Shown piece by piece: positions 22-51,819 of a DNA stretch of 64,000 bases. Under the pieces are notes generated by a model, which saw only the letters and a program-made list of their open reading frames with translations, was not told the DNA's origin and searched no databases. This DNA comes from an uncultured bacterium (GTDB taxonomy: Bacteria; Muiribacteriota; Ozemobacteria; Ozemobacterales; Ozemobacteraceae), in NCBI GenBank assembly GCA_964474705.1, contig CAYYUI010000005.1, positions 41,965 to 105,964 on the forward strand, read 5' to 3'. Within the stretch, counting starts at the first letter, position 1; every line of letters starts with the position of its first letter. The translations under genes were made by a program, and so were the position numbers.

Positions 22-2226
22 TTATTGTTCGGGCCTCAGTCTCGTATTTTGTTGCTGGCGAATGCGGTTGTCATAGTCGATGAATTCGCTGCACCAGGTC
101 AGCATGTCCTGGCGCAGAGTATAATGCTGTTCGATGCTTTCGGCAAAGTTTTCGTTGGCGAGAATTCGCTCGAGTTGACGCCGTGCGCGCAGAAATACTG
201 ACTGACCCCGGGAAATGAGCATCATGAAGTCATCAGACCTTGACCTGGTGAGAAGTGAAGAATGCATGACGGTTTCTGCCAGCACGGCGATTGCAAGGTT
301 GCGCTCGCGGACAGCCTGATGAATGCGTATTTCACCTGGCTGCGGCGGCGGGTTAAGATGGGTGCTGACACGGTTGAGGATTTCGTTGCCGGCAAGAGCC
401 ATGAGAAAAATATGCGACTGCAGAAGTCTTTCGGGCTCGGCGTTAAAGGCTTCGCGGTCGAGATCGTTTATCAGGTGATAGAGATTCTGGCTTTCGATAC
501 TGAACAGGTTCAGAGGAACACTGCCATCAGTTTTGTTGTTAATATTTTTGAGAGGCTTGCGCCGGCATTCGCAGAGCATTTCGTCCATAGCTGTGAGTGT
601 GGGACCATGCTTGAACGGGTGTGGCTGGCGGCGGGTGGCGGATGCCGGTTGTTGATGAACCTCAGGAGAGCTGTTTCTGCTGTTCTTTACTTCGGGAGCG
701 GGTGAGGTTGATTTAGCAGCGGCGGGGCCGGTTTCAGAGGTGGAAGTGGCGGCCGGTTGACGGGCCAGAATCTGTGACCGGTTATATCTGGCGGCGGCAT
801 AGAGCATACCGGCATAGATTGCGGCGATAAGAACCCCGGAGAGATTGCCGACATAGAAATATTGTCCGGGAATAGCCTGAAATTTCGCGAGGATGAAGAG
901 CATGCCATCAAGAACGAGCGAAAGGCCCGGAGCGACAAGAATCGCTGCGGCCGGCCAGAAAATAGCCAGAAATGCGGTTATAAAGGCAACGGGCAGAATA
1001 TAACTGAATGACCAGACAATCAGAGGGTTGACCAGCAGGGCCGAAGTTGAAACGGTTCCGAAGAGAAATGCCGTCATTGGCATGGTTCCAAAGCCGGCTG
1101 CCATAGATATGGCGAGATATCTGGCCAGAATATCAGGGAAATAGAAGCGTTTGCAGGCGTCTTCAAAGGGGCCTCGCAGGAAAACTATACTGATGACTGC
1201 GGTGAAACTGAGCTGGAACGCAATGTTGCTTATCAGCTGCGGGTTGATCAACAGCAGCAGAAATGCTGCGATGGCAACCGGCCTTACTGGCGATGGATAC
1301 GCTTCGATATGAAGAACTATGGTAACGCACAGGTACATGATGAACGCACGCCAGATAGATGGGCTGCCGACGGTAGTCAGAGAGTAAAAGAGCAGAAAAA
1401 AACCGATCATGATGCTGCGGGATATCGGTGGGATTTTGAACCAGTGAAGAACAGCGGCGAGAAAAACAATCAGAACCATTATGTGCTGCCCGGAAACGGC
1501 AAGAATATGACTTATGCCGGTTTCTCTGAATAACGTTCGGTCTTCACGGCTCAGTTGGCCGGTGTCTCCCAGAACAAGCCCCGTAACAATGCTGGAGTGC
1601 CGAGGAGGCAATACTGTATTCAGACCATCGCGTAATCGCCTTTGTATGCGCCCGGTCAGATTGTATGGCGAAAGATTGCCGGAAATGTTGTTGATACTAT
1701 CAGCATGAAAGACAGGTGGATATCCGGGAGAGCCGATGGAAAAACGCCCGGTGAGTGCAAAGCTCTGTTCAGGTTCCGGGATGATTTCCGGGTGGTTGAG
1801 GCTGCAGTCGACCAGACCAGGGATTGAGACCTTCTGCCCGTTGCTCTCGAAGATGGTATCCGTCATTTTGAATCGGATGCTGCCGGAGCTCTTCATGCTT
1901 AATTCGCCCTTGAATTGCCCTGAGATTGTTCCGCTGCTGCCATCGATTGCCAGAAAATGTGAATAATCAGCAGGCAGCACGATCAGTAAATTGCCGTAGA
2001 AAGCTGCAGACGACAGTGCTGCCATGCCCAGAAAGATGATACGCCACCGGTTGAGGCTTTCTGGGAAAGATAGAAGCAGGCAGATTATAGCTGCTGTCAG
2101 CAGCGCGGCATGCATTCCTGACGGCAGGAGTGAGGCAAGCATCAGCCCGATGCTGAACAGTGCTGAAAAAACCACCAGTATATCGGAAGGGGCGATAAAA
2201 ATGTCTTTGCCGGCATGCTTAACCAT
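22..2226 (-). CDS. comEC: DNA internalization competence protein ComEC/Rec2 (N-terminal membrane + competence domain; C-terminal ~220 aa not MBL-like)
   Basis: Multi-TM N-terminus, DUF4131/competence-domain region (LVLGDTGQLSREDRTLFRETGISHILAVSGQHIMVLIVF), more TM helices, directly downstream of comEA with 8-nt overlap. No HxHxDH metallo-beta-lactamase motif in the C-terminal part. Confidence 0.8.
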   Translation of the reverse strand: MVKHAGKDIFIAPSDILVVFSALFSIGLMLASLLPSGMHAALLTAAIICLLLSFPESLNRWRIIFLGMAALSSAAFYGNLLIVLPADYSHFLAIDGSSGTISGQFKGELSMKSSGSIRFKMTDTIFESNGQKVSIPGLVDCSLNHPEIIPEPEQSFALTGRFSIGSPGYPPVFHADSINNISGNLSPYNLTGRIQRRLRDGLNTVLPPRHSSIVTGLVLGDTGQLSREDRTLFRETGISHILAVSGQHIMVLIVFLAAVLHWFKIPPISRSIMIGFFLLFYSLTTVGSPSIWRAFIMYLCVTIVLHIEAYPSPVRPVAIAAFLLLLINPQLISNIAFQLSFTAVISIVFLRGPFEDACKRFYFPDILARYLAISMAAGFGTMPMTAFLFGTVSTSALLVNPLIVWSFSYILPVAFITAFLAIFWPAAAILVAPGLSLVLDGMLFILAKFQAIPGQYFYVGNLSGVLIAAIYAGMLYAAARYNRSQILARQPAATSTSETGPAAAKSTSPAPEVKNSRNSSPEVHQQPASATRRQPHPFKHGPTLTAMDEMLCECRRKPLKNINNKTDGSVPLNLFSIESQNLYHLINDLDREAFNAEPERLLQSHIFLMALAGNEILNRVSTHLNPPPQPGEIRIHQAVRERNLAIAVLAETVMHSSLLTRSRSDDFMMLISRGQSVFLRARRQLERILANENFAESIEQHYTLRQDMLTWCSEFIDYDNRIRQQQNTRLRPEQ

Positions 2227-12295: not shown

Positions 12296-12802
12296 ATGGC
12301 AGACAAAATTATGTCCGACAGCCAGAATACCATTCTCTCAGGGAACCCCCCGGCGAAGCCCGGCGGTTTTACCATGCCCGAACTGCTGATCACCATTCTG
12401 CTGCTCGCGATTCTCTTTACACTGACTATTATTTTTTCCAGTGGCCTGAACCAGTCGAAGAAACTCCGCGACTACAGTATCGCGGTTGCTCTGGCACAAC
12501 AGGCGCTCGAAATTGCCAGATCTGCACCGTTTTATCTTCTCGATGATGCCGATGCCGGCAGAAACAGTGTCGAAACTGACCTGAATACCGCCTCCGACAA
12601 CAGCGACCAGCTTTCTCCCGATTTTGAATCAGGCGGCATCAGATATCGGCGTGAAGTTGAAATAGGCGATGTGATGGCGGTTGAAGACAATAAACGTCCC
12701 ATCGGTCTTAAGCTGATCAAAGTCACCGTTGACTGGAAACCCCTCGACGGCGGGAAAGCAGAACCTTTCGTAGTCACCTCAACGATTGCCAATATGAACT
12801 GA
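12296..12802 (+). CDS. prepilin-type N-terminal cleavage/methylation domain protein (pilin/pseudopilin-like)
   Basis: GFTMPELLITILLLAILF class III signal with Glu+5, after an unusually long ~24 aa leader. Confidence 0.7.
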   Translation: MADKIMSDSQNTILSGNPPAKPGGFTMPELLITILLLAILFTLTIIFSSGLNQSKKLRDYSIAVALAQQALEIARSAPFYLLDDADAGRNSVETDLNTASDNSDQLSPDFESGGIRYRREVEIGDVMAVEDNKRPIGLKLIKVTVDWKPLDGGKAEPFVVTSTIANMN

Positions 12803-12804
12803 TT

Positions 12805-13548
12805 ATGATAAACAAAAAACGCTTGTCATTGGCTGATTCACATGGTTTCACCATAGTCGAAACCCTGATGGCCGTCGTGCTTTCAACGATGATTCTGTTT
12901 TTTGCCTACCGCGTTTTCTTTTCGCAGACTGAGATGGTCACCAGGTCGATTGAGTTTCTGCACGTAAATGAAGGTTTCCGCAAGGTTATGACCTTTATGG
13001 GTGATGATATTCGTGAATCGACTACCATTCTCAAACCGGTTCCGGTGTTTGGCGATAAAGTCGCTTCACAGACAACCATGCCAGGGGTAGTTCTCCACCT
13101 CCAGAGTTCCGAGCTTGATCCCCAGATTCCTTTCAACAGCCCATTAGGAGGGCAGATTGCGGTGCGCCGGCAGGTGGTTTACGAACTTGAAAAGATGCCC
13201 AACCCAGAATCTCAGACTATTCCACGTTTCAAGCTGATCAGAACTGCAAGTTTCGAAGAAAAGCCCGGCCAGAAAAATTCCCAGCGCCAGGTGCTTGTTG
13301 AAAATATCCGCGATCTCGTCATCTATAGGACTGTCCGCAAGCCGTTCAAGCCCGCCAATATCAGTTCTTCCGGTGACAGTATGGTGCTGTCGCAGCCTTT
13401 GAGCCAGTCAGGCACCGGCAACAGTCTGGTTCATGTGAGAATGGTTCTTGAAAGAACCCGCAAAGAAACCGAAACCGGCCAAGTATACAACATTACTATG
13501 AATACAAGTTTCTATAAGCGCGGAAAAGAGATTTTCAAAAACCCATGA
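12805..13548 (+). CDS. minor pilin/pseudopilin-like protein (PilW/GspJ-like)
   Basis: HGFTIVETLMAVVLSTMILF prepilin N-terminus; 2-nt gap from upstream gene, ATGA overlap with downstream gene. Confidence 0.7.
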   Translation: MINKKRLSLADSHGFTIVETLMAVVLSTMILFFAYRVFFSQTEMVTRSIEFLHVNEGFRKVMTFMGDDIRESTTILKPVPVFGDKVASQTTMPGVVLHLQSSELDPQIPFNSPLGGQIAVRRQVVYELEKMPNPESQTIPRFKLIRTASFEEKPGQKNSQRQVLVENIRDLVIYRTVRKPFKPANISSSGDSMVLSQPLSQSGTGNSLVHVRMVLERTRKETETGQVYNITMNTSFYKRGKEIFKNP

Positions 13549-15899
13549 GCAACACATTTAACAAACGCCGCCGTGGCTCCGGATACCTCATCGTGTTGGG
13601 GTTTGCCGGTCTGTTGCTGATTTTCTTCGCTATTTTCTTCCGGGTCAAGTCGGGTCATCAGCAGCTGCAGTCAAAAGATGTGCGCCGCTTCGTGGCCTCA
13701 AATCTGGGTGAAGCCGCCTTGAACTGTGTTATCGCCGAGTTGAACGCCAACCGCGCCTTCAATACCCATCGCTATTTTCGCGACAAGGAAGATTACTACT
13801 GGAACACACCAGTGAAAAAGCGTGAATCGCTGATCGGCAAGATCGACGGCATCAGCCTTTCCGGCGTCAGCTCAGGAATTTACAGCGGCTCATCGGATGC
13901 CGGTGAATTCAAGGCAAAATTTGCCCAGGTCTGGGGTGCCCGCGAAAATTCAAAAACCGAGACTCTTCTTGAAGCCCAGATGTATACCCGCGCTGAAATC
14001 GTCGTTAAAGTTGGTTCCGGCTGGGGTATCAATGAACAAACCTGCCGCAAGATCACGGCGTTGATCGAGCGGCGTTATCCGGCCGGCGAAAGCCTTCTCT
14101 ATGACGGCGAATTTCTTGATCTCGGCGCTCTCGGCCCTTACCCGGGCCGCGAAAATCAACTCCGTCAGGGGCGTCTCTATGGCTATCACTGGATAACCTC
14201 TAATACTGCCGGCGGAGCCTGCCGTGGTTCAGAACTTCTCGACATGGAAAAGATTGAAACCCCTGGCTTCATAAGAGCTTTGAAAGATACAAGAATTTCT
14301 TTCGCCGATAAATCGAGCATGACCCTTAATGCAGCGAATGATTCGATGAAGATCAGTAATTTTCAGGCTCAGGACGGATTTCTGCTCGATGGTGCGCATG
14401 GAGCCCACCCGATCAAACTGGCGAGATTGCCTCGAGAACGTATCAAGGCTACCGCAACCCGCTATCGAAAAACATACGGCCTGACCATTGACGAAAAGAC
14501 TCTGCCGGCCGGTAATTACAAGAATCCATATGATACCAGGAGCCGTTATGTCGATCTCAATTTTGCTGATTTCAAGGTTGTCAAGGCCATAACCGCGAGC
14601 AGTTCTGCCGGAACATCCACAGGCACCGGAACCGGAACCGGAACGGGTACTGGAACCAATACCGGCGGCGATGGCGAAGAAGAGGTTGACGAAACCGATT
14701 ACAACCTCACTTCTGATGAACCTGAAGTTATCCGCAAGCTGAAAGGCGACAAAATCCTAATTTATGCGGAAGTTCCCTTGCGCATCTGGGGTTGCCCCGA
14801 CCGCACCGTTACTATTTACAGCACCCGGGATATCGTTATTGCCGGCGATTTCAACCAGAACCCCCGCACCGTCCAGATCTATCAGGACGATTCCCTGATG
14901 AAATATAAATATGACATCGAAAATGGCAAAGGCCGCAACAAGGTTGGAGCACTGATAATGTCTGAAGGCCGGGTTCTTATCGACATGTCGCGGCCGACCC
15001 TTTTTGCCAGAAACGAAATCAAACCGTTTTTTCTTTATTGTCTGGCGCAAGCCATGCATCCATCAACTCCAGAGATCGAAGCAGAGATCAAAACACTTCT
15101 CTGTCCGCTCGACCCGGATAATCGCAAATCCCTGATCGGCCTCGGAGAACTCGGCGCTGATGGCAATTTTGAAGCTCGCTTCGGTGCCATGGCTTTTTTG
15201 TACAACAATAAAGAACTGAACGGCGGCGGCCTCTATCAGTCAAAAATGGAAGATGTCATCAACTTTTTCACCCCGGGAGTCGGTGACAAACCAAGGTTTG
15301 GCATCAATGACGAAAAGACCCGCACCGCAGTCATCGAAGCCCTGAAAACAGCCGTCAGAAGTGCCGGCGACTTGACGATGACCGAACAGGACCAGATTTT
15401 CGATATGGCCTGGAACCAGGCGGTTGTCGAAGAAGAGACCGCACCGCTGCCGAATTCGGGCGCGATGGGTATGATGCGCTGGCTTTTCGAAGAAGCAAAA
15501 AAAGACCCCAATGATGCCATCTATTATCCCGAAATTACCATCAACGCAGGTCTGGTCAGTTCAGCCTGCCGCTCGGCACGCTGGCAGATCGGGAACTCAC
15601 CTGACAAGGTCGATGATGAAATCGGCAACGCCGGCAGCGGTGAATATATGCGCGAACCCGGATTCATCATTCAGCGGGTGTTTGGTGGCGTCATCAGACT
15701 GGCTGCAAAAAAAGCCGAATATTTCATTTCAGGAGCCCATACCGGCAAAAATATTCTGCGTCGCCGCCTCTGGGACCCAACCAACCTGCGTAATGAACCT
15801 TTCAAGCCTCTTGAAGCACCGGCAGTTCATAACCTGCTGACCTTTTCTGAAGAATCGATCAGCGTTCGTGAATACGACAATTTCAGCGGTAAAAACTAA
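13545..15899 (+). CDS. giant (784 aa) GspK/PilX-like minor pilin with large C-terminal extension
   Basis: N-terminus RRGSGYLIVLGFAGLLLIFFAIFF (pseudopilin-like hydrophobic segment without Glu5, as in GspK/PilX). Internal (GT)n low-complexity linker; translationally coupled to the two pilin genes. Confidence 0.5.
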   Translation: MSNTFNKRRRGSGYLIVLGFAGLLLIFFAIFFRVKSGHQQLQSKDVRRFVASNLGEAALNCVIAELNANRAFNTHRYFRDKEDYYWNTPVKKRESLIGKIDGISLSGVSSGIYSGSSDAGEFKAKFAQVWGARENSKTETLLEAQMYTRAEIVVKVGSGWGINEQTCRKITALIERRYPAGESLLYDGEFLDLGALGPYPGRENQLRQGRLYGYHWITSNTAGGACRGSELLDMEKIETPGFIRALKDTRISFADKSSMTLNAANDSMKISNFQAQDGFLLDGAHGAHPIKLARLPRERIKATATRYRKTYGLTIDEKTLPAGNYKNPYDTRSRYVDLNFADFKVVKAITASSSAGTSTGTGTGTGTGTGTNTGGDGEEEVDETDYNLTSDEPEVIRKLKGDKILIYAEVPLRIWGCPDRTVTIYSTRDIVIAGDFNQNPRTVQIYQDDSLMKYKYDIENGKGRNKVGALIMSEGRVLIDMSRPTLFARNEIKPFFLYCLAQAMHPSTPEIEAEIKTLLCPLDPDNRKSLIGLGELGADGNFEARFGAMAFLYNNKELNGGGLYQSKMEDVINFFTPGVGDKPRFGINDEKTRTAVIEALKTAVRSAGDLTMTEQDQIFDMAWNQAVVEEETAPLPNSGAMGMMRWLFEEAKKDPNDAIYYPEITINAGLVSSACRSARWQIGNSPDKVDDEIGNAGSGEYMREPGFIIQRVFGGVIRLAAKKAEYFISGAHTGKNILRRRLWDPTNLRNEPFKPLEAPAVHNLLTFSEESISVREYDNFSGKN

Positions 15900-17372: not shown

Positions 17373-17606
17373 TCAGCCGGGAAGATTAAAGTTGTCAGGC
17401 AACTGAACAGTAGAAATGGCGTGCTTGTAAATCAACTGTTTTTTGCCTTCTGATTCGAGGAGAATCACAAAAGTGTCAAAGTCAAGGATTGTTCCCTGAA
17501 TCTGGAACCCTTTCATCAGAAAGATCTTAACAGCTTCCTTTTCGTCTTTCAGATACTGAAGGATATTGTCTTGTATGTTTACAGCAGGCATTTCTATTAC
17601 CTCCAA
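17373..17606 (-). CDS. hfq: RNA chaperone Hfq
   Basis: Sm1/Sm2 motifs including IYKHAISTV; 77 aa; GGAGG RBS upstream. Confidence 0.9.
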   Translation of the reverse strand: MEVIEMPAVNIQDNILQYLKDEKEAVKIFLMKGFQIQGTILDFDTFVILLESEGKKQLIYKHAISTVQLPDNFNLPG

Positions 17607-20670: not shown

Positions 20671-21714
20671 TTATTTCCAGGTGCGGGTTCTGGTGAGTTT
20701 TTGCCCGCCTTCGTTGATTGTGAGCTCGATTGAGCCAGGCTGATTGATGTCGCTGGCTACCGAAAGTTCGATTACCTGAACATTGTTGATTATCTGGCCA
20801 AGCTTCTTGAACCAGTCTGCAAGCCTGCTGCTGTCGGGAACATAGGAATAATAGCCATCGGTGCTGTTGGAAAGGTTGCGGAGATTGGTTACCTCGAGCC
20901 AGCCGAAGCCGAAAACAAAAACCGAAATATTATGCATCTGGCATCTTCTGATAACATCATCGATGCTTGCGATCGAGGCATTATCGTTGCCATCGGTGCT
21001 GAGGATCAAGAATCTGAAGTGCGGGCGGGCCTGGATTTTTTCTACTCCGGTATCGACCCCGTCAAACAGCGCGGTGTTCTGCAGAGGAATGCGTTTCTTG
21101 ACAGCTGTTTCAAGAACGGTTTTATCGGCGGTCAGAGTCTGAACTTCATGAACCTTGTTGTTGAACTTGATCACCCCGGCGGTGAAAGGAATAAGAAGCT
21201 GGCCGATAAGCGCTGACGAGTTATCTTCGATGGCGGTAAGGTCTTCGGGAAACATGCTGCCCGAGTAATCCATGATATTGGCAAAACTCATCGGGTCGGC
21301 AAGGTCGCTATATGCATGCAGTGGCCTTACCCGGTCGACTATGATGCTGATATCAGCTCCGGATTTGTCTTTGCCTGTTACCGTCACGTTCGCGGCATTG
21401 ATGACTTTGACCGGACTTGCGTCTTTGTCTGTCATCGATACGAACATGAAGAACTTTTTCGGGCTGCTTTTCTCGATGCCGTGAATGCGCAAAGCATTGC
21501 TGAAGTCGTCTTCGGGCTTCAGGTTAGGGTGGAAGGCACTGATGAAGGTAAGATAGCGTCGCAGGGTTTCGAGAAGTGAATTTGAAGCCCCGTAATTCGA
21601 AGCCAGAAGATACCAGAGTATCCCGAGGCACAATAACAGAAAAAGAACCAGAAACAATATATATTTCCAGGCTGGAATTCTAAGCCTTTCGCCTCCTGGA
21701 GCTACTTCAACCAT
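20671..21714 (-). CDS. membrane-anchored von Willebrand factor A (vWA) domain protein (BatA/BatB-like)
   Basis: N-terminal TM; MIDAS motif DYSGSM; STDGND motif. Confidence 0.75.
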   Translation of the reverse strand: MVEVAPGGERLRIPAWKYILFLVLFLLLCLGILWYLLASNYGASNSLLETLRRYLTFISAFHPNLKPEDDFSNALRIHGIEKSSPKKFFMFVSMTDKDASPVKVINAANVTVTGKDKSGADISIIVDRVRPLHAYSDLADPMSFANIMDYSGSMFPEDLTAIEDNSSALIGQLLIPFTAGVIKFNNKVHEVQTLTADKTVLETAVKKRIPLQNTALFDGVDTGVEKIQARPHFRFLILSTDGNDNASIASIDDVIRRCQMHNISVFVFGFGWLEVTNLRNLSNSTDGYYSYVPDSSRLADWFKKLGQIINNVQVIELSVASDINQPGSIELTINEGGQKLTRTRTWK

Positions 21715-25004: not shown

Positions 25005-28000
25005 TTATTTGGCTACTTCACCTTCGATGGTGCCTGATGGACGCTGACTGAGAATGTGGTTGAACTGTTCGTTGTAATCCTGGAGAATGCGCAGAATGCC
25101 GCGTTTGATCGACAGCAGTTCGTCGCTGGCCGGGCTGACTTCGTGGTTCTTTTTGATTTCTTCTTCAATGGCGTCTTCAAGTTTTTTGACTTTGTCGGTC
25201 ATGATCGGCAGATACTTGCTGACTATTTCGCGCTGTTTCGGGAACGGCAGTGATTTCCAGTATTCATTGTAGACGCTTCTGATCAGGTAAATACCCATGG
25301 TGTTGTTCTTGAGATAGTCGAACAGCTGGGTGATGGTGCGGCCGATCGGCTGCGGTTTGTCCTGTTGATACCAGAGCTCATACTGCACCAGCTCATTGTT
25401 GTATTCGATACCGTATTTGCTCTGAACCGTATCAGCGATAAGCTCATAGCGCAGTAGCAGGTAGACCATGTAATGCTCTTCGAGCTTTTTGGCCGGAATC
25501 AGGCCGTAGCTCGACCAGAGAACCGGGTAGGCATCGTTAGTAAGAAGAGCGTGGCAGTTGATTTTTGCGGTGTTCTGGCGATAGAGATTGTGCCATTGCG
25601 TTATGGCGCTGATATTATACGGAGCGATGCCGTGTAGAGTCTGCAGCAGACTGATTTCATAAGGGTTGCGGGTCGGAGCCACGGTTACGCCGATGTCTCC
25701 TTTGCGCAGCGCATCCTTGATTTCTTCAGAAAGTTTGCTGTTCTCGTCGGCAATGCCGAGGGTGACGATATTCATGCGCTGTGGCTGGTTGTTGCCGCGA
25801 TCGTTCATAGTGATCAGCGGTGTCGACTGGTTCATCATGCTTTCGACCAGACTCTTCTTGAAGCCCTTGCGCACTGAGTCCTTCCAGTGAATGAAATCTT
25901 CGATGCCACCGAACAGGCGGCGCTCGATAATACCGCGGCAGTATTTGACGATTTCTTTTTCGAGTGAATTGCCTTCAGGATTGGTGAACTTTTCCCAGTT
26001 TTCCTTGAGGTTGATCTTGACCAGAAAGTCACCTTCGATGTCGTTGTTTGAAAGGTCGCCGAGCAGATATTTGTAGAACGGCTCGATATCGCGATCTTCA
26101 AAAATATAGGTTCTGATGAAATCCTGAACTTTCGAATAAGGCTTGATGCGCTCGAGGCAGTGTTCATACTGTCGTTCGATCATGCCATCCTTGGAAATCT
26201 GCGCCAGCTTTGTCGAGAAAACCTCGACCTGTTTGCGTATCGACTGAGACTGCACGTTCAGGTATTTAAGAAAATCTTCAGCACATGAAATACAGAACAT
26301 TTCATATTCCATGTCGACGGCTTCCTTGGCTTCTTTCAGCAGTTTATCGCGTTCGTCGTTGATGTCGGTCATGCGCAGCACAGTGCCGAGTTCCATGAGC
26401 TTGCCGCCGAGGCCGGCAAAGCCACCGAGCTTTTCCTTGAGCCGATTGGCTATTTCACGGTATTCACGCTGTTCTTTTTCGAGTTTGCCCTTGATTTCCT
26501 GGACTTTACGCGACAGAATTTCGCGGGGGTAGCGGGTCAGATATTTTTCGAAGGCGACGAGAAAGTCGATCGCAATGTGAGCGCCAAGGTCGGGGTTATT
26601 GATAATTTCGATAACCTTGTCAAGAAGATGCTCGCCTGCTTTGACGGCATTCTGTTCGAAATTGACCCTGACCTTGGCTCTGATCTCGTCTTTTTTGACG
26701 CGGTTCTGATTCATTTCATCGATCTGGCGAAGAATGAAAGCCGAGGCAGATTCGCCTTCCTTCTGTTTGTTCACGGTGCGCAGCGAATGGAACATCGGGT
26801 TGTCCCAGTATTGCTTGCGATCGATGATTTCTTTGGTCATCATGAACAGGCCTTCAGGAGTGAGATCGATTTTGGTCGGGTTGTTTTCGGCGAATTCCTG
26901 AACCATGCTGTCGATAAGAATTCGGTCTACCGAGAGTTTCAGCCAGTAGGTGACATCCATCGAGAGTTTGTAGGTATAGAGGTCGCGGATGACGTCGAGT
27001 GGGTAATAGAAGCTCTTGAAACCGGCTGAGCTGAAGCATTTCAGCTGCTTGCCCTCCAGGTCTGAACTGTTTTGCCCGAGAATCTGTGAAGCGTTGTCGA
27101 GCATCGAGTTCTGCGCCTGGCGAAGCTGGGTGGCAAGTTTTGTAAAAATCAGCTCGGAGGCGATGCTGTAATAGGTCGGGATGTCGTCCTGATTGCTGGT
27201 GCCAAGCAGGTAGCACTGATCGAAAGGCGGTTCTTCACTGACCGAACCGTAAGTGGTTGTGTCGTTGCTCTTGCCGATCGGGCCGTAGTTGACCATAAAC
27301 TTGTTGCGGCGGTCCTGGCTGATAATGTCTTTGGCGGTACGGGTCGGCGGAAACTTCTCTTTGTTCATGAAATAGAAAGTTTCTACGAGTGAAGCATAGC
27401 CATTGCCTTCGAGACGCCCGGTTGAATTGACGTTCGGGTCGATGGAAATCTGGGTGAAGGCTTCCGGAGTCAGCTGGATGCCAACGATGGTCGGCTTGCC
27501 TTTGCCGCCTGAGAGCTGATAATAAGCCATTTTGAGCAGGTAGGCGATGTCGAGAAACATGCCGGCGCCTGACCCGCCGCACAATGAACCGACGACGTAG
27601 AATTCAGGGGTGAGAATCTGGCCCTGCTTATTGGTCAGGGGAACGATGATGTCGTCCTGATTGACATTGCTTCGGGCCATAATTTTGCTCATCTTGGCCT
27701 TGATCTGCTGAAAAATCTTCTGGATATCGACAAAAATGCCGAAACGGCCGGTAAACCTGAACTGGTGAGCTCCCTGGCTTATCTGACCGATGTGATGTTT
27801 CAGTTTCTGCGGGAACCATTCGTAGAGATAATTGTAGGTTTCAGAATCCAGATTTCCAGTTATCTGGCCGGCATTCTGGATGTTGATCTGATGATACTCA
27901 CTTTCGGTGAGTTTTGAGCCGGTCTTGGGATCGTCTTCAGGCTGGCTGGCGTCGAAAATGTCTGTGTCGATGCAGAGAAGATCGATAAAATCAGGCAGCG

Positions 28001-28157
28001 CCGGTTCGCCTTTTCCTGAGATTGCATAGGCCTTCTTGATCTGGGGGCTATTGAGAAAAGTTTCTTTGAAATTGATCAGTGATTTTTTGCCGGTACCCCC
28101 GAGCCCTACAATCAGAGCAGGGTTGAGTGCAATGCGGTTTTCATAGTTTGTGCTCAT
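25005..28157 (-). CDS. giant tubulin/FtsZ-superfamily GTPase-like protein (Tubulin_2-type N-terminal domain + ~800 aa helical/coiled-coil extension)
   Basis: T1 loop ALIVGLGGTGKK, FtsZ-like CIDTD (NTD) motif, T4 loop VVGSLCGGSGAGMFLD, in the spacing expected for the tubulin/FtsZ fold. Probable start is ATG at 28157 with GGGAG RBS; the ORF track start is 28238. Confidence 0.6.
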   Translation of the reverse strand: MSTNYENRIALNPALIVGLGGTGKKSLINFKETFLNSPQIKKAYAISGKGEPALPDFIDLLCIDTDIFDASQPEDDPKTGSKLTESEYHQINIQNAGQITGNLDSETYNYLYEWFPQKLKHHIGQISQGAHQFRFTGRFGIFVDIQKIFQQIKAKMSKIMARSNVNQDDIIVPLTNKQGQILTPEFYVVGSLCGGSGAGMFLDIAYLLKMAYYQLSGGKGKPTIVGIQLTPEAFTQISIDPNVNSTGRLEGNGYASLVETFYFMNKEKFPPTRTAKDIISQDRRNKFMVNYGPIGKSNDTTTYGSVSEEPPFDQCYLLGTSNQDDIPTYYSIASELIFTKLATQLRQAQNSMLDNASQILGQNSSDLEGKQLKCFSSAGFKSFYYPLDVIRDLYTYKLSMDVTYWLKLSVDRILIDSMVQEFAENNPTKIDLTPEGLFMMTKEIIDRKQYWDNPMFHSLRTVNKQKEGESASAFILRQIDEMNQNRVKKDEIRAKVRVNFEQNAVKAGEHLLDKVIEIINNPDLGAHIAIDFLVAFEKYLTRYPREILSRKVQEIKGKLEKEQREYREIANRLKEKLGGFAGLGGKLMELGTVLRMTDINDERDKLLKEAKEAVDMEYEMFCISCAEDFLKYLNVQSQSIRKQVEVFSTKLAQISKDGMIERQYEHCLERIKPYSKVQDFIRTYIFEDRDIEPFYKYLLGDLSNNDIEGDFLVKINLKENWEKFTNPEGNSLEKEIVKYCRGIIERRLFGGIEDFIHWKDSVRKGFKKSLVESMMNQSTPLITMNDRGNNQPQRMNIVTLGIADENSKLSEEIKDALRKGDIGVTVAPTRNPYEISLLQTLHGIAPYNISAITQWHNLYRQNTAKINCHALLTNDAYPVLWSSYGLIPAKKLEEHYMVYLLLRYELIADTVQSKYGIEYNNELVQYELWYQQDKPQPIGRTITQLFDYLKNNTMGIYLIRSVYNEYWKSLPFPKQREIVSKYLPIMTDKVKKLEDAIEEEIKKNHEVSPASDELLSIKRGILRILQDYNEQFNHILSQRPSGTIEGEVAK

Positions 28158-28276
28158 TAAGACGCTCCCGGAAGAGAATGATTTAAGGCAGTATAACAAT
28201 TTTACCTTACCCCGGCAATCTGTTATACTGAATTTCATTCAGGCCATTTATTCAACCCACTTTATGGCAGGAGAAA

Positions 28277-45423: not shown

Positions 45424-46935
45424 TCAGCCCGCTGACGTTTGCGGCATCAGCGAAGCGGAGCCCGTCTGCTGCAATCGTTGCGCATACAGACCTGCGGCCC
45501 TGAGTATAACATAAAATTGCAGCGCCATGACGCCGAGAATCGAATAATCGATCCAGAATCCGTAACCGAAAATTCCCAGCCCGGCATAGATGCCTGCAGA
45601 AGACAGGCCATCGCCGAATCTGAATATTACCGTGTCGATGAAGCTCTTGCCCTGGTATTTGGCTTCGCGGTCGAGCGGAATGTAGATCAGCTCACGCAAA
45701 ACCCGACCGGTTGAATAATTGAGGGCATAGCGGATGATTATGGTCATGGAAATAATGTTCAGAGAGGGTTTGATCAGCATCATGGCAGTGCCGGTGACCT
45801 GAATGAGGTTGAGCATCAGCAGGCCGTAGATCGGATTGGCGAAAATCATCATCAGCCGGGTTACCAGAAACTGGGTTACCAGTGAAACGATGTTGATGTA
45901 GCCATAAATGCCGGCCACGAAAGCGGTGCGCTCGTTGATATTGCCGAGTTCGCTTTCGACAAGATGGTTGAACTGCTGCGAAAAAAGAGTCGCAGAAAAG
46001 GTGTAAAAAAACATTTCCAGCGCCATAAGTATGAGAATCTGGTTGCGGCAGACTGAAAGAAAGCCGTCCCAGGGCCGGGGCGGGTGCGCGGGCACCACCG
46101 GTTTCTGGTCGATATCGGGAATGCCCTCTGGGCGGTAATGATTGCGGTGAATATACTGCATACACCAGATTGAAGGGTAGAGAAGCACCATTGCCAGAAT
46201 GAAAAGGTTCGGGGTGCCGGTGTGTCTGACGAGAGTCGAAGTCAGGGTGCTGCCGACCAGCCCACCGATCAGGCCCCCGTAGCCTATTATGGCGTAGAGC
46301 TTCTTGCTCTGGGCGACCGAAAACACATCGTTCATGAAAGACCAGAACATGCTTACGGCCATCAGCGAGAACATGTTGACCCAGATGTAATAGGTACCGA
46401 TGGCAAGGATCTTGAACAGGCCCGGAAACTCTCTTTTCTTTATAATGCCTTTATTTGCGCCTGTTTCTGTCATAAGACTCCGGGTCGCGATCGCGCCGCT
46501 TTCCGGAAGCTCGGCCGTCATGGTCGCTGCCGTTACGGTTTCTGCCTGCTGCTGTCTGCCGTTTGCCGTTTCACTGACAAATCTGCCTGGTTCTGAGCCT
46601 GGAATCGGCAGCATGAAAGAAAAAATGGCCCAGAACCCGAGAAGGCTCAGAGCAAAGAATCTGGTAATGAAAGGTATGAAAATGTCTCGTTTAAAATGCC
46701 CGACGATCAGACTGTAAATCGCGTTTATAACTACCAGGCTGGCCATCGAAAAAATATTCAGCAGCGGAATGTTCTCTGAGCCAAGTTCGAGTGCCAGGCT
46801 TTCGCGTACCGGTTTGATGACGTAATAAGAGCAGATGACGCAAAAAAAGTAGGCCAGCGAGACCAGTGTTATTTTCAATTCAGCCTTGTCATGGTGCTGA
46901 ATGCTGCTGGAATCACTTTGTGACTGAATGGCCAA
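45424..46935 (-). CDS. TLC-family nucleotide (ATP/ADP) translocase-like transporter
   Basis: 12-TM protein whose N-terminal block (AYFFCVICSYYVIKPVRESLAL) matches the NTT signature FxxFNYxILRxxKDxLVV; long hydrophilic insertion in the middle. Confidence 0.5.
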   Translation of the reverse strand: MAIQSQSDSSSIQHHDKAELKITLVSLAYFFCVICSYYVIKPVRESLALELGSENIPLLNIFSMASLVVINAIYSLIVGHFKRDIFIPFITRFFALSLLGFWAIFSFMLPIPGSEPGRFVSETANGRQQQAETVTAATMTAELPESGAIATRSLMTETGANKGIIKKREFPGLFKILAIGTYYIWVNMFSLMAVSMFWSFMNDVFSVAQSKKLYAIIGYGGLIGGLVGSTLTSTLVRHTGTPNLFILAMVLLYPSIWCMQYIHRNHYRPEGIPDIDQKPVVPAHPPRPWDGFLSVCRNQILILMALEMFFYTFSATLFSQQFNHLVESELGNINERTAFVAGIYGYINIVSLVTQFLVTRLMMIFANPIYGLLMLNLIQVTGTAMMLIKPSLNIISMTIIIRYALNYSTGRVLRELIYIPLDREAKYQGKSFIDTVIFRFGDGLSSAGIYAGLGIFGYGFWIDYSILGVMALQFYVILRAAGLYAQRLQQTGSASLMPQTSAG

Positions 46936-49961: not shown

Positions 49962-51788
49962 ATGAAAGAATTTGAACTCGATCAGGAGCTGATTCCGCTG
50001 GCGCGCAAAACCCTCGGAATCTCAGACATGTTCGTCTGTCTCGATGAGACTGTGCTTGACAACCTTGTCGGCCTTGCCGGCAAACTGCATGTCTACGAAG
50101 ATCATGAACTGGTAATAACCGCCGGCAGCGCCTCTGATTTCTTTCTCGTTGTCATTAAAGGCGAAGTATCGGTTTCGATCGGCCAGGAAGAGAACTTTAT
50201 CGAAATTGCCAGACTTGGGCCGGGCCATATGGTTGGTGAGATCGCCATGCTGCGCGACGAGGCGCATTCATACTCGTATTTTGCCCGTGGGCGACTGGTG
50301 GCTCTCTGTTTTTCGTCATCGTTATTCTATGACCACATTCTAACGATTCCGGGAATAAACATTCCTTTGCCGCAGATTGTCGGCAGAAGATTTCAGGAAT
50401 CACCTGGTTATCAGGTTTCCATGGAAAATCGCAAAGAGATGCCGCTTCCCGATATTGGCCTCATGAAGCTTTTGCCTGCAGATTTTTTGCAGAGAAATCG
50501 TCTGTTTCCAGTTAAACTCATCGATAATCGTGTTGCAATCGGCTATTGCGAAATAATGCATCGTGACCTGCGTGAGTCTATAGCCCGTCTTCTGCCTGAT
50601 TATGAAGTTAGAACCATATTTTTTTCCACTGAATATTTCAATAGGGTCATGCAGAGATTTCTGGGTGAGCCGACAGCCGTTCAGGTTGGTAAAAGCCCCG
50701 GAAACCGGAGCGTAGATGATCTGCTCAGGCTGCTTGTCGCCGCCGGTGGTTCTGATCTATACCTTTCTGCCGGGCAGATCCCAAGATGGCGCATCGATGG
50801 AGAGATTCAAGAGATTCCCGACGCCGAAAAATTCGGTTCAGAAGAAGTTCTCGATCTTCTCAGACCGGTTGCCAGAACCGAGATTCTTGCCTCTTTCGCA
50901 GATTCATGCGATGAGGATTTCGCCTATTCAATGAGCTGCGGCTATCGTTTCAGAATCAATCTGCTGCGCGATCACAATGGGGTCAGCGCTGTCTTTCGTC
51001 ATATTTCGACTGAAATACATTCACTGGAAACGCTTGAATTGCCTGACATTCTCACTAAATTCTGTGAGATGCCAAAGGGGCTGGTGCTGGTGACCGGGCC
51101 GACCGGTTGCGGCAAATCGACGACTCTCGCTGCGATGATCGACTGGATCAACCGCCGCCGCCGCCGCCATATTCTGACTATCGAAGATCCAATCGAGTTC
51201 GTTCATGGCAGTCAACAGGCTCTGATTAATCAGCGTGAGGTAGGCATTCATACCCGTAGTTTTGCCAAGGCTCTGCGTGCCGGTTTGCGTGAAAACCCGG
51301 ATATTGTCATGGTGGGCGAAATACGTGATAACGAAACCATGGCAATGGCCCTTGAAACCGCCAATACCGGCCATCTGGTCTTTGCTACACTTCATACGGC
51401 TACGGCACCGAGCACGATCGACCGGGTAATTGACAATTTTCCGCCCGAAGGGCAGAACCAGGTGCGTATGTTTCTCGCCGACAACCTGATCGGCGTTGTC
51501 TGTCAGACTTTGTGCCGACGCATCAGTCGCGGTTGCGTTCCAGCCTTTGAAATCATGGTAATGGACCCGGCCATGGCCAATCTCATCCGTACCGGAAAAA
51601 CCTACATGCTGCCGAACGCCATGCTCACTGCCCAGGCAAATGGCAATCGTCTTCTCAACGACGATCTCTGCAATCTTGTGCGCAATGGCACGATTACTCT
51701 TGCTGAAGCTATGAATAAAACGCGCGACAAGACAGAACTCGAACGCAAGCTTGGTGAAATTGCCCATCCCCCGGAACGGAAAGACTGA
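49962..51788 (+). CDS. PilT-family type IV pilus retraction ATPase fused to N-terminal cNMP-binding-like and GspE_N-like domains
   Basis: PilT motifs: Walker A GPTGCGKST, EDPIEF, NPDIVMVGEIRD, His box GHLVFATLHT, C-terminal AMANLIRTGKTY. N-terminal ~120 aa beta-roll with GEIAML (cNMP-binding-like), then a T2SSE_N-like segment. Confidence 0.7.
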   Translation: MKEFELDQELIPLARKTLGISDMFVCLDETVLDNLVGLAGKLHVYEDHELVITAGSASDFFLVVIKGEVSVSIGQEENFIEIARLGPGHMVGEIAMLRDEAHSYSYFARGRLVALCFSSSLFYDHILTIPGINIPLPQIVGRRFQESPGYQVSMENRKEMPLPDIGLMKLLPADFLQRNRLFPVKLIDNRVAIGYCEIMHRDLRESIARLLPDYEVRTIFFSTEYFNRVMQRFLGEPTAVQVGKSPGNRSVDDLLRLLVAAGGSDLYLSAGQIPRWRIDGEIQEIPDAEKFGSEEVLDLLRPVARTEILASFADSCDEDFAYSMSCGYRFRINLLRDHNGVSAVFRHISTEIHSLETLELPDILTKFCEMPKGLVLVTGPTGCGKSTTLAAMIDWINRRRRRHILTIEDPIEFVHGSQQALINQREVGIHTRSFAKALRAGLRENPDIVMVGEIRDNETMAMALETANTGHLVFATLHTATAPSTIDRVIDNFPPEGQNQVRMFLADNLIGVVCQTLCRRISRGCVPAFEIMVMDPAMANLIRTGKTYMLPNAMLTAQANGNRLLNDDLCNLVRNGTITLAEAMNKTRDKTELERKLGEIAHPPERKD

Positions 51789-51819
51789 CGAGAGAGGGCA
51801 GCACTTTTCAGGAGGCCTT

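What the first reader, a model, noticed from the sequence alone, without database searches (positions are those of the whole stretch)
12296..15899. Orphan three-gene prepilin operon ending in a 784 aa GspK/PilX-like giant
Three tightly coupled genes (2-nt gap, then ATGA overlap) each begin with a class III prepilin-type hydrophobic N-terminus. The first has an unusually long leader. The third encodes a 784 aa protein with a GspK/PilX-type N-terminus lacking Glu5, an internal (GT)n linker, and an ~500 aa C-terminal region of unknown fold. Canonical GspK/PilX proteins are ~150-350 aa. No assembly ATPase, platform protein, prepilin peptidase or secretin is nearby. The locus is flanked by an M28 peptidase and a polysaccharide deacetylase.
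Basis: partly seen in the sequence, partly recalled or inferred. Interest (0 to 1): 0.5.

Follow-up and report, generated by a model that had tools for sequence, protein, structure and literature searches.

The report
Pilus-tip minor pilin trio, ComZ-like cap
Three co-transcribed genes of a Riflebacteria genome encode the small priming complex that sits at the tip of a type IV pilus-like filament, and its oversized third member has the same build as the Thermus tip pilin ComZ and cyanobacterial PilX, so this is a new lineage of a known kind.

Summary
Three + strand genes (12296-12802, 12805-13548, 13545-15899) are joined by a 2-nt gap and an ATGA overlap.

- **Genes 1 and 2** carry G|F-T-x-x-E prepilin motifs, the only two in the 64 kb window.
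- **Gene 3** (784 aa) has the Glu5-less GspK/PilX-type N-terminus.

- Gene 1 is PilV/GspI-like, on weak profile hits.

Gene 3 is therefore a GspK-like pilin domain carrying a large beta-solenoid. It also has a helical module of about 165 aa and a hypervariable acidic loop, which is the "(GT)n linker".

The trio is conserved in 9 of 9 loci examined across Riflebacteria and Muirbacteria. Gene 3 has no Pfam or NCBIfam family and no sequence hit in the PDB.

"Orphan" is normal for this phylum. A conserved PilB-PilC pair lies 2.3 Mb away in a complete relative, and a PilT-family ATPase sits at 49962-51788 in the window. The tip ligand (DNA, polysaccharide or surface) is unresolved.

Verdict: new member of a known kind, moderate-to-low interest.

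The parts
12296..12802 (+). Gene 1: PilV/GspI-like minor prepilin. It is 168 aa from ATG 12296, or more likely 163 aa from ATG 12311. Predicted cleavage is after Gly24, giving mature F-T-M-P-E with Glu5.
   Evidence: TIGR02532 scores 24.1 bits, above the 16.3 cut-off, and TIGR02523 PilV gives E=3e-4 over residues 24-106. Of 47 family members, 41 hit TIGR02532 and 21 hit PilV (best 7.6e-8); a few hit GspI/XpsI. E29 is invariant. The modal homolog length is 163 aa.
12805..13548 (+). Gene 2: GspJ/PilW-like minor prepilin (247 aa). Predicted cleavage is after Gly14, giving mature F-T-I-V-E with Glu5.
13545..15899 (+). Gene 3: 784-aa GspK/PilX/ComZ-class tip pilin. It has the conserved RRG|SGYLIV N-terminus, with Ile rather than Glu at +5.
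13578..14075 (+). Gene 3, residues 12-177: long hydrophobic and amphipathic alpha1 helix (12-68), followed by an antiparallel beta-sheet. This is the pilin-like domain.
14091..15008 (+). Gene 3, residues 183-488: run of short beta-strands, read as the beta-solenoid. It is interrupted by the disordered loop.
14595..14699 (+). Gene 3, residues 351-385: disordered, hypervariable Gly/Ser/Thr/Asp/Glu-rich loop. It contains the (GT)n run, encoded by (ACCGGA)x5.5 at 14625-14657.
   Evidence: pLDDT is below 50 over 351-382. The loop is 17-59 aa and acidic in 52 homologs, and only 4 aa in P0089 and P0090. TRF row at 14625-14657.
15009..15509 (+). Gene 3, residues 489-655: acidic, mostly alpha-helical module (net charge -9). 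ComZ is 554 aa in full and about 230 aa shorter, so this module is probably extra; this was not checked on coordinates.
15510..15896 (+). Gene 3, residues 656-784: C-terminal beta-strands, ending in a long strand (761-772) and a short helix.
   Evidence: Secondary structure. I infer that the last strand returns to the pilin sheet, as in ComZ. This was not checked on coordinates.
49962..51788 (+). PilT/PilU-family retraction ATPase (608 aa) with N-terminal cNMP-binding and MshEN-like domains. It is a probable partner of the same filament system; the association is inferred.
   Evidence: TIGR01420 scores 401 bits, above the 319 cut-off. Pfam: T2SSE, cNMP_binding and MshEN.

Best explanation
The three genes encode the core minor-pilin (priming/tip) complex of a type IV pilus-class filament in a member of Candidatus Riflebacteria (Rifleibacterium/Ozemobacteraceae lineage).

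**Proposed mechanism.**
1. All three products insert into the inner membrane by their N-terminal hydrophobic helix.
2. A prepilin peptidase encoded elsewhere cleaves them after the conserved Gly.
3. The PilV/GspI-like subunit (gene 1) and the GspJ/PilW-like subunit (gene 2) bundle their helices with the Glu5-less GspK/PilX-like subunit (gene 3). Gene 3 is the first and topmost subunit.
4. This trimer nucleates polymerisation of the major pilin on a PilC platform, driven by a PilB-type ATPase. Both are encoded far away on the chromosome.
5. The trimer ends up at the filament tip.
6. Gene 3's bulky beta-solenoid plus helical module then caps or plugs the tip and presents a binding surface. It works like Thermus ComZ (a tip DNA receptor) and cyanobacterial PilX (a proposed tip plug or adhesin). 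A PilT-family ATPase in the same window would retract the filament.

**Shown:** gene structure, prepilin motifs and their conservation, the GspJ-like fold of gene 2, the ComZ/GspK/solenoid fold of gene 3, the conserved trio architecture, and the presence of PilB/PilC/PilT-type genes in the lineage.

**Inferred:** cleavage by a prepilin peptidase, heterotrimer formation, tip location, and the ligand.
For: **Operon and motifs.** The junctions are tightly coupled. The window's only two GFxxxE motifs lie in adjacent ORFs. Family-wide motifs are (G/A)|(Y/F)(T/S)(L/M)PE for gene 1, (G/A)|FTx(V/I)E for gene 2 and (K/R)G|SG(Y)LIV without Glu5 for gene 3.

**Fold and profile evidence.**
- Gene 1 hits PilV and GspI profiles.

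**Precedent.** All cyanobacterial PilX homologs carry the same solenoid, and some carry extra domains (bioRxiv 10.64898/2026.02.12.705559).

**Conservation.** A trio of about 150-175, 215-310 and 750-910 aa was found in 9 of 9 independent loci. These include 30-39% identical orthologs, paralogs, and Muirbacteria.

**Machinery in the lineage.**
- The window has a PilT-family ATPase.
- A PilB(MshEN-T2SSE)-PilC(T2SSF) pair is conserved at 75-84% identity in 44 loci, most of them titled Riflebacteria/Ozemobacteraceae.
- One of those loci is on the same complete 5.2 Mb chromosome that carries the cassette, at 2.41 Mb against 4.69 Mb.
- The paralogous cassette lies within about 9 kb of PilB in two genomes.
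Against: - No prepilin peptidase, secretin, PilMNO or major pilin was identified in the window. The source genome could not be searched as a whole.
- The cassette has no GspH/FimU-type adaptor pilin.
- Gene 3 has no detectable sequence similarity to ComZ, GspK or PilX. There are no Pfam or NCBIfam hits for it or for 30 distant homologs, and no PDB sequence hit at E<=10.
- Beta-solenoids inflate structural scores, and I could not inspect model coordinates to confirm the insertion topology.
- Whether the filament is a retractile pilus or a T2SS-like pseudopilus is not proven.
Confidence: 0.8

Rival explanations
1. The trio is the GspI-GspJ-GspK tip of a type II secretion pseudopilus, not of an extended pilus. 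It acts as the piston head that pushes folded exoproteins through a secretin, and the solenoid contacts the substrate or the secretin.
For: The best structural matches for gene 2 are T2SS pseudopilins (XcpW, GspJ, EpsJ), and gene 3 matches GspK and XcpX. The I-J-K gene order matches gsp operons. The lineage's assembly ATPase has the MshEN+T2SSE architecture, which GspE-like proteins share. Some homologs of gene 1 are annotated as T2SS proteins.
Against: - No GspC, D, L or M lies nearby in any locus examined.
- The window has a PilT/PilU-family retraction ATPase above its curated cut-off. By established knowledge of T4aP and T2SS, this is a hallmark of retractile T4a pili, not of T2SS.
- The Thermus T4P minor pilins TTHA1219 and ComZ match equally well. 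T4P minor pilins generally resemble T2SS pseudopilins (PMC6561018).
- The Pfam T2SSK model does not hit.
- A cap of about 85 kDa is large for a periplasmic pseudopilus.
Confidence: 0.12
2. The trio is a tip complex, as in the best explanation, and its specific role is that of a competence DNA receptor. Gene 3 binds extracellular dsDNA as ComZ does, and retraction delivers the DNA to ComEC.
For: The closest solved structure is the DNA-binding competence pilin ComZ, whose partner PilA2 is GspI-like, as gene 1 is. The window encodes ComEC (22-2226) and CinA next to the PilT-like ATPase. The pilin-like and first solenoid segments are basic, with pI about 9.1-9.3.
Against: - ComEC and CinA are widespread, lie 10-36 kb away, and are not linked to the cassette in other loci.
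- There is no sequence homology to ComZ, so its DNA-binding lysines cannot be mapped.
- The protein carries a conserved acidic loop and an acidic helical module.
- Cyanobacterial solenoid PilX proteins also serve motility and adhesion pili.
- Some lineages append a CHASE2-GGDEF gene, which suggests surface sensing rather than DNA uptake.
Confidence: 0.25
3. The proteins are not pilins at all. The hydrophobic N-termini are ordinary signal peptides or single TM anchors of unrelated envelope proteins, and the motif matches are chance.
For: The Pfam N_methyl scores for the window proteins are below the gathering threshold: 19.6 and 16.7 against 21.2 bits. Gene 3 has no family hit.
Against: - Glu5 is invariant in genes 1 and 2 across dozens of homologs down to about 30% identity.
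- The -1 Gly/Ala is retained by all but a few full-length homologs.
- TIGR02532 is passed by gene 1.
- Independent fold evidence gives GspJ-like and GspK/ComZ-like pilin domains.
- The motif occurs nowhere else in the 64 kb window.
Confidence: 0.02

Closest known systems
ComZ of Thermus thermophilus (PDB 6QVI), with PilA2, in the pilA1-pilA2-comZ-pilA3 competence pilin locus
   Same: - Both have a GspK-like pilin domain plus a large triangular, ice-binding-protein-like beta-solenoid.
- Both have a non-Glu residue at position 5.
- Both are encoded next to a GspI-like and a GspJ-like minor pilin.
- ComZ is argued to be tip-located because the solenoid cannot fit in the fibre body (PMC6561018).
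   Different: - Aligned identity is only 16%, and no sequence-level homology is detectable.
- Gene 3 is 784 aa against 554 aa for ComZ.
- It has an extra acidic helical module of about 165 aa and a hypervariable acidic loop.
- The Thermus locus has four pilins plus ComZ, whereas this cassette has three genes.
- DNA binding is untested here.
Cyanobacterial PilX families (PilX1-3 of Synechocystis; the HpsA-like PilX-EPS subfamily)
   Same: These are PilX-class Glu5-less pilins with an apical beta-solenoid inserted into the pilin fold. Some have expanded solenoids and additional undefined domains. They are proposed to replace PilY1 as the tip plug or adhesin within a PilV/PilW/PilX-type core priming complex (bioRxiv 10.64898/2026.02.12.705559).
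   Different: The phylum is different. No named cyanobacterial protein was seen among the homologs checked; only 20 of the 81 exhaustive HMMER hits were looked up for names, and many had none. I made no direct structural comparison with cyanobacterial models, because afdb50 was unavailable.
GspI-GspJ-GspK (XcpV-W-X) pseudopilus tip complex of type II secretion (PDB 3CI0, 5VTM)
   Different: GspK carries an alpha-helical insertion between strands 3 and 4, not a solenoid (PMC6561018). There are no T2SSK or GspK family hits. No GspH is present in the cassette, and no gspCDLM genes are nearby. A PilT-type ATPase is present in the window.
FimU-PilV-PilW-PilX-PilY1 of Pseudomonas aeruginosa type IVa pili
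   Same: It is a core minor-pilin operon, separate from pilBCD and pilMNOPQ, that primes assembly and carries a large tip-associated protein. Gene 1 gives PilV profile hits.
   Different: No FimU or PilE equivalent is present in the cassette. No PilY1-type beta-propeller protein is present either. The large tip module is instead fused into the PilX-class pilin.
Modular pilins of Streptococcus sanguinis (PilB with vWA, PilC with lectin module)
   Different: The grafted folds differ, and the host is monoderm. Their modules are attached to the C-terminus, not inserted as a solenoid.

Membership tests
Type IV pilin-like proteins (class III signal peptide; TIGR02532 / PF07963) | Short basic leader ending in Gly/Ala at -1, followed by a hydrophobic stretch of about 20 residues | tested here: met
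   All three proteins show it. It is conserved in homologs of each gene. Gene 1 scores 24.1 bits on TIGR02532, above the 16.3 cut-off. The Pfam N_methyl scores of genes 1 and 2 are just below gathering, but many homologs carry a precomputed PF07963 hit.
Type IV pilin-like proteins (class III signal peptide; TIGR02532 / PF07963) | Glu at mature position 5, except in the tip-capping GspK/PilX class | tested here: met
   Gene 1 E29 and gene 2 E19 are invariant. Gene 3 has Ile at +5, as expected for the GspK/PilX class.
Type IV pilin-like proteins (class III signal peptide; TIGR02532 / PF07963) | Cleavage and N-methylation by a prepilin peptidase (PilD/GspO) | not testable with these tools
   No peptidase_A24 gene was found among the window ORFs scanned.
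GspI/J/K - PilV/W/X core minor-pilin tip complex | Middle subunit with the GspJ/PilW fold | tested here: met
   [not shown]
GspI/J/K - PilV/W/X core minor-pilin tip complex | Small subunit of GspI/PilV type | tested here: inconclusive
   All PilV TIGR02523 hits are below the curated cut-off: the window protein gives E=3e-4, and 21 of 47 members hit, best 7.6e-8. Three of 47 hit GspI or XpsI. The PDB profile search matched only the N-terminal helix.
GspI/J/K - PilV/W/X core minor-pilin tip complex | Capping subunit with a GspK/PilX-like pilin domain lacking Glu5 | tested here: met
   [not shown]
GspI/J/K - PilV/W/X core minor-pilin tip complex | Adaptor pilin (GspH/FimU) encoded with the trio | tested here: not met
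   The operon has only three genes in the window and in 9 of 9 related loci. A few gene 1 homologs weakly hit GspH.
GspI/J/K - PilV/W/X core minor-pilin tip complex | Physical heterotrimer at the filament tip | not testable with these tools
   No complex prediction is available. The claim is inferred from gene order and from strict co-occurrence.
ComZ / cyanobacterial PilX class (solenoid-bearing tip pilins) | Large triangular beta-solenoid of the ice-binding-protein (DUF3494) type joined to the pilin domain | tested here: met
   [not shown]
ComZ / cyanobacterial PilX class (solenoid-bearing tip pilins) | [quoted passage not shown] | tested here: inconclusive
   The order of secondary-structure elements is compatible: pilin sheet 75-177, solenoid, helices, terminal long strand 761-772. 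Coordinates and contacts could not be inspected.
ComZ / cyanobacterial PilX class (solenoid-bearing tip pilins) | Detectable sequence homology to ComZ | tested here: not met
   A profile of 54 homologs against all PDB sequences gave 0 hits at E<=10. Foldseek gave no hit with E<1. The resemblance is architectural, and common descent is unproven.
ComZ / cyanobacterial PilX class (solenoid-bearing tip pilins) | DNA binding (ComZ) or EPS/surface binding (PilX-EPS) | not testable with these tools
   This requires biochemistry.
PilY1/PilC tip adhesins | C-terminal beta-propeller (Neisseria_PilC) and no pilin N-terminus | tested here: not met
   There is no such Pfam hit. Gene 3 has a pilin-type N-terminus and a solenoid, not a propeller.

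The most novel reading that the evidence does not exclude
The family is unannotated and, among named members, confined to Riflebacteria and Muirbacteria. It may be more than a ComZ look-alike. Its conserved acidic helical module and hypervariable acidic loop could form a new tip-located receptor or sensor, for example for a polysaccharide, a cation-bridged surface or a partner cell. In lineages where a CHASE2-GGDEF diguanylate cyclase is fused to the operon (L001, L002), this receptor would be coupled to c-di-GMP signalling. That signal would feed back on the MshEN-domain PilB-like and PilT-like ATPases. The result would be a self-contained surface-sensing circuit built around a three-pilin tip without PilY1 or FimU.
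Probability: 0.15. Interest if true: 0.55.

Novelty: new member of a known kind. Interest (0 to 1): 0.3.

Why it matters
- **Annotation.** It names and gives a testable role to about 90 hypothetical proteins of about 780 aa that are conserved across Riflebacteria, a candidate phylum known essentially from MAGs, and its neighbour Muirbacteria.
- **Distribution of the design.** It extends the solenoid-capped PilX/ComZ tip pilin from Deinococcota and Cyanobacteria to further deep-branching diderm phyla. This supports the idea that fusing the tip plug or adhesin into the PilX-class pilin is a widespread alternative to PilY1.
- **Minimal complex.** It offers a compact three-gene priming complex with no adaptor pilin in the cassette, which is suitable for structural work.
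- **Limit.** It does not open a new category of system.

Tried and rejected
- **Sequence family searches on gene 3.** Pfam and NCBIfam gave no hit. Pfam on 30 distant homologs gave only noise.
- **PDB sequence searches.** The profile of 54 homologs found nothing at E<=10. The profiles of genes 1 and 2 matched only the N-terminal helix of pilins.
- **Literature on Riflebacteria or Ozemobacter pili.** Nothing relevant turned up.
- **Exhaustive HMMER search.** Only 81 hits were found in 1.84 billion representatives. All named ones are Riflebacteria, Ozemobacteraceae or Muirbacteria.
- **Do orthologous cassettes sit near pilB-pilC?** They do not: only the paralogous cassette does, in two genomes. 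The PilB neighbourhood in Rifleibacterium sp. holds only TPR-PilB-PilC and no pilMNOPQ or pilD.
- **Promoter and terminator scan.** The counts were at background level and gave no information.
- **Flanking genes as functional partners.** I rejected the M28 peptidase and the polysaccharide deacetylase. They are on the opposite strand. The synteny holds in closer relatives (L002, L052) but not in the 39% and 30% orthologs or in Muirbacteria.
- **The (GT)n run as a functional linker.** I rejected this. It is one species' version of a variable acidic loop.

Full report
**1. Observation**

The window carries three + strand ORFs at 12296-12802 (168 aa), 12805-13548 (247 aa) and 13545-15899 (784 aa).

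Gene 1 ends in TGA, then 'tt', then the ATG of gene 2. Genes 2 and 3 share an ATGA overlap.

The N-termini are:
- gene 1: ...KPGG|FTMPELLITILLL;
- gene 2: ...SHG|FTIVETLMAVVL;
- gene 3: RRRG|SGYLIVLGFAGLLLIFF.

A six-frame motif scan finds the G-F-x-x-x-E plus hydrophobic pattern only in these two adjacent ORFs of the 64 kb window. Gene 1 passes the curated TIGR02532 cut-off. The flanking M28 peptidase and polysaccharide deacetylase are confirmed. The (GT)n run exists and is encoded by an (ACCGGA)x5.5 repeat at 14625-14657.

**2. Source and conservation**

The 784-aa protein has 90 full-length homologs of about 740-820 aa, at 29-93% identity. All are labelled hypothetical, and nearly all named ones come from Candidatus Riflebacteria, Rifleibacterium or Ozemobacteraceae; two carry other MAG labels. 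Genes 1 and 2 show the same distribution.

An exhaustive profile search of 1.84 billion representative proteins finds only 81 hits. The named distant ones are second copies in Riflebacteria or Ozemobacteraceae genomes, or come from Candidatus Muirbacteria.

Every locus I could fetch has the same three-gene unit in the same order. The sizes are about 150-175 aa, then 215-310 aa, then 750-910 aa. The loci are:
- L001 (39% identity);
- L002/L003 (Ozemobacter sibiricus);
- L004 (30% identity);
- L052 (a complete 5.2 Mb chromosome);
- L005/L007 and L053 (paralogs);
- L006 and L054 (Muirbacteria).

The N-termini were read.

The flanks are conserved only among closer relatives: L002 and L052 share the M28 / trio / deacetylase / Hfq / TPR / VWA / Tubulin_2 order. 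They are not conserved in the deep orthologs. The trio is therefore the functional unit, and it is vertically inherited.

**3. What each gene is**

*Gene 1.* The motif (G/A)|(Y/F)(T/S)(L/M)PE is conserved and Glu5 is invariant. Of 47 family members, 41 hit the prepilin domain model and 21 hit PilV (TIGR02523, best E 7.6e-8, below cut-off). A few hit GspI or XpsI. It is PilV/GspI-like, at moderate confidence.

*Gene 3.* It has no Pfam, NCBIfam or PDB-sequence hit, and neither do 30 distant homologs. The N-terminus (K/R)G|SGYLIV is conserved, with G11 at least 90% conserved and no Glu5. The paralogs read KKG|SAIL..., which is typical of the PilX/GspK class.

These are the relatives reported for ComZ's own two domains, which were searched separately: GspK for the pilin domain and an ice-binding protein for the solenoid. 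The paper describes ComZ as a GspK-like pilin domain with an ice-binding-protein-like solenoid inserted between its last two strands. ComZ binds the GspI-like PilA2 and DNA, and is argued to sit at the pilus tip (PMC6561018). Foldseek did not recover these matches, so the link is remote and at fold level only.

**4. Anatomy of the giant (from the model's secondary structure)**

| Residues | Feature |
|---|---|
| 12-68 | alpha1 helix |
| 75-177 | antiparallel sheet (pilin-like domain) |
| 183-488 | short-strand solenoid, interrupted at 351-385 |
| 351-385 | disordered loop |
| 489-655 | helical module |
| 656-784 | beta-strands ending in a long terminal strand |

- The 351-385 loop is 17-59 aa and rich in Asp, Glu, Ser and Gly in all Riflebacteria orthologs. 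It is reduced to 4 aa in the two deepest ones. The (GT)6 run is this species' version of it.
- The helical module is acidic (net charge -9), while the pilin-like and first solenoid segments are basic.
- ComZ is about 230 aa shorter (554 aa in full), so the helical module is probably an addition. I could not inspect coordinates, so the insertion topology is inferred.

**5. Is it orphan?**

No assembly gene lies within about 30 kb. The window does encode a PilT/PilU-family ATPase (TIGR01420, 401 bits against a 319 cut-off) with extra cNMP-binding and MshEN-like domains, at 49962-51788. It also encodes ComEC at 22-2226.

A PilB-like (MshEN+T2SSE) and PilC-like (T2SSF) gene pair is conserved at 75-84% identity in 44 loci, most of them titled Riflebacteria or Ozemobacteraceae. 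These include O. sibiricus, Rifleibacterium spp. and the complete chromosome OZ223236.1. On that chromosome the pair lies at 2.41 Mb while the cassette lies at 4.69 Mb.

Around PilB-PilC there are no further pilus genes, so pilus genes are scattered in this phylum. The paralogous cassette does lie within about 9 kb of PilB in two genomes. A minor-pilin operon separate from the motor genes is also the norm in Pseudomonas (established knowledge). I could not search for PilD, PilQ, PilMNO or the major pilin in the source genome.

**6. Mechanism**

The best-supported model is a core minor-pilin priming/tip complex.
1. The three prepilins are processed by a prepilin peptidase.
2. The GspI-like and GspJ-like subunits bundle with the Glu5-less subunit, which is topmost.
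3. The complex nucleates filament growth on PilC, driven by PilB.
4. It remains at the tip, where the solenoid and helical module cap the fibre and bind a ligand.
5. The PilT-type ATPase retracts the filament.

Motifs, folds, order and co-occurrence are shown here. Processing, complex formation, tip location and ligand are inferred.

Cyanobacterial PilX proteins have the same solenoid, sometimes with extra domains. They are proposed to replace PilY1 as the tip plug or adhesin (bioRxiv 10.64898/2026.02.12.705559).

Rival readings:
- *T2SS pseudopilus tip.* This is less likely, given the PilT gene and the absence of gspCDLM in every locus examined.
- *Specific role as a competence DNA receptor.* This is plausible but unsupported beyond the ComZ analogy and a distant ComEC.
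- *Not pilins at all.* This is effectively refuted.

**7. Comparison and novelty**

The cassette works like GspIJK / PilVWX, with a ComZ/cyano-PilX-type cap. Membership at fold and architecture level is met for the GspJ and GspK/ComZ features. It is inconclusive for GspI/PilV. It is not met for a GspH/FimU adaptor in the operon or for sequence homology to ComZ.

The family is unannotated and, among named members, confined to two candidate phyla, but the design is already described in Thermus and Cyanobacteria. I rate it a new member of a known kind, with interest 0.3.

The most novel reading not excluded is that the acidic helical module and loop form a new tip receptor. In lineages where a CHASE2-GGDEF gene directly follows the trio (L001, L002), this receptor would be wired to c-di-GMP control of the MshEN-domain ATPases.

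Noticed in passing
window 49962-51788 (+): A 608-aa PilT/PilU-family ATPase (TIGR01420, 401 bits) has an N-terminal cyclic-nucleotide-binding domain and an MshEN-like domain fused in front of the PilT core. Canonical PilT proteins are about 345 aa with no such extension (from general knowledge). This suggests retraction controlled by cNMP or c-di-GMP. It is followed by cinA (51751-53061).
   Followed up: partly
L001 12451-14694; L002 12342-14633: In some Riflebacteria (O. sibiricus and GCA_015232575) a CHASE2-GGDEF diguanylate cyclase of about 750 aa follows the 780-aa pilin gene directly on the same strand, with a gap of 4-26 nt. It is absent at this position in the window and in the complete chromosome OZ223236.1.
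   Followed up: partly
L005 8871-12430; L053 1817-5262: Some Riflebacteria genomes carry a second, divergent copy of the whole trio (about 25-30% identity in gene 3). It always follows a NamZ gene and lies within about 9 kb of the PilB-like ATPase. In L005 it is followed by two paralogous proteins of about 500 aa with no family, and by a CheR-like methyltransferase.
   Followed up: partly
window 25005-28238 (-) and 20671-21714 (-): A 1077-aa protein with an N-terminal Tubulin_2 (PF13809) domain lies a few kb from a VWA-domain protein, which abuts a 997-aa TPR protein. The same VWA/Tubulin_2/TPR neighbourhood recurs in the complete relative (L052). Its function is unknown.
   Followed up: no
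window 22-2226 (-): A ComEC/Rec2-family competence channel protein (Pfam Competence, 1.7e-47) lies 10 kb upstream of the pilin cassette. It is compatible with DNA uptake capacity, but it was not seen next to the cassette in any other locus examined.
   Followed up: partly
window 17373-17606 (-): A 77-aa ORF with an Hfq-like sequence and a TTG start lies between the polysaccharide deacetylase and the TPR gene. It matches the position of the Hfq gene in L002 and L052.
   Followed up: partly
window 45424-46935 (-): A 503-aa membrane protein gives a partial hit to the TLC ATP/ADP transporter family (6e-13). It sits next to PfkB kinase and HAD phosphatase genes. Nucleotide transporters are unusual outside obligate intracellular bacteria.
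   Followed up: no
L001 4621-8289: A 1222-aa protein with no Pfam hit lies immediately upstream of the trio in GCA_015232575. Its N-terminus (KKTG|SIIMVGISMIFIV) resembles the Glu5-less GspK/TadG-type start of gene 3.
   Followed up: no
L004 12139-13011; L054 5707-6678: Major-pilin or GspG-like proteins of about 290-320 aa (MRKG|FSLVELLVVVAIIA...) lie 3-6 kb from the trio in the deepest Riflebacteria-like ortholog and in Muirbacterium. No such gene occurs in the window.
   Followed up: no
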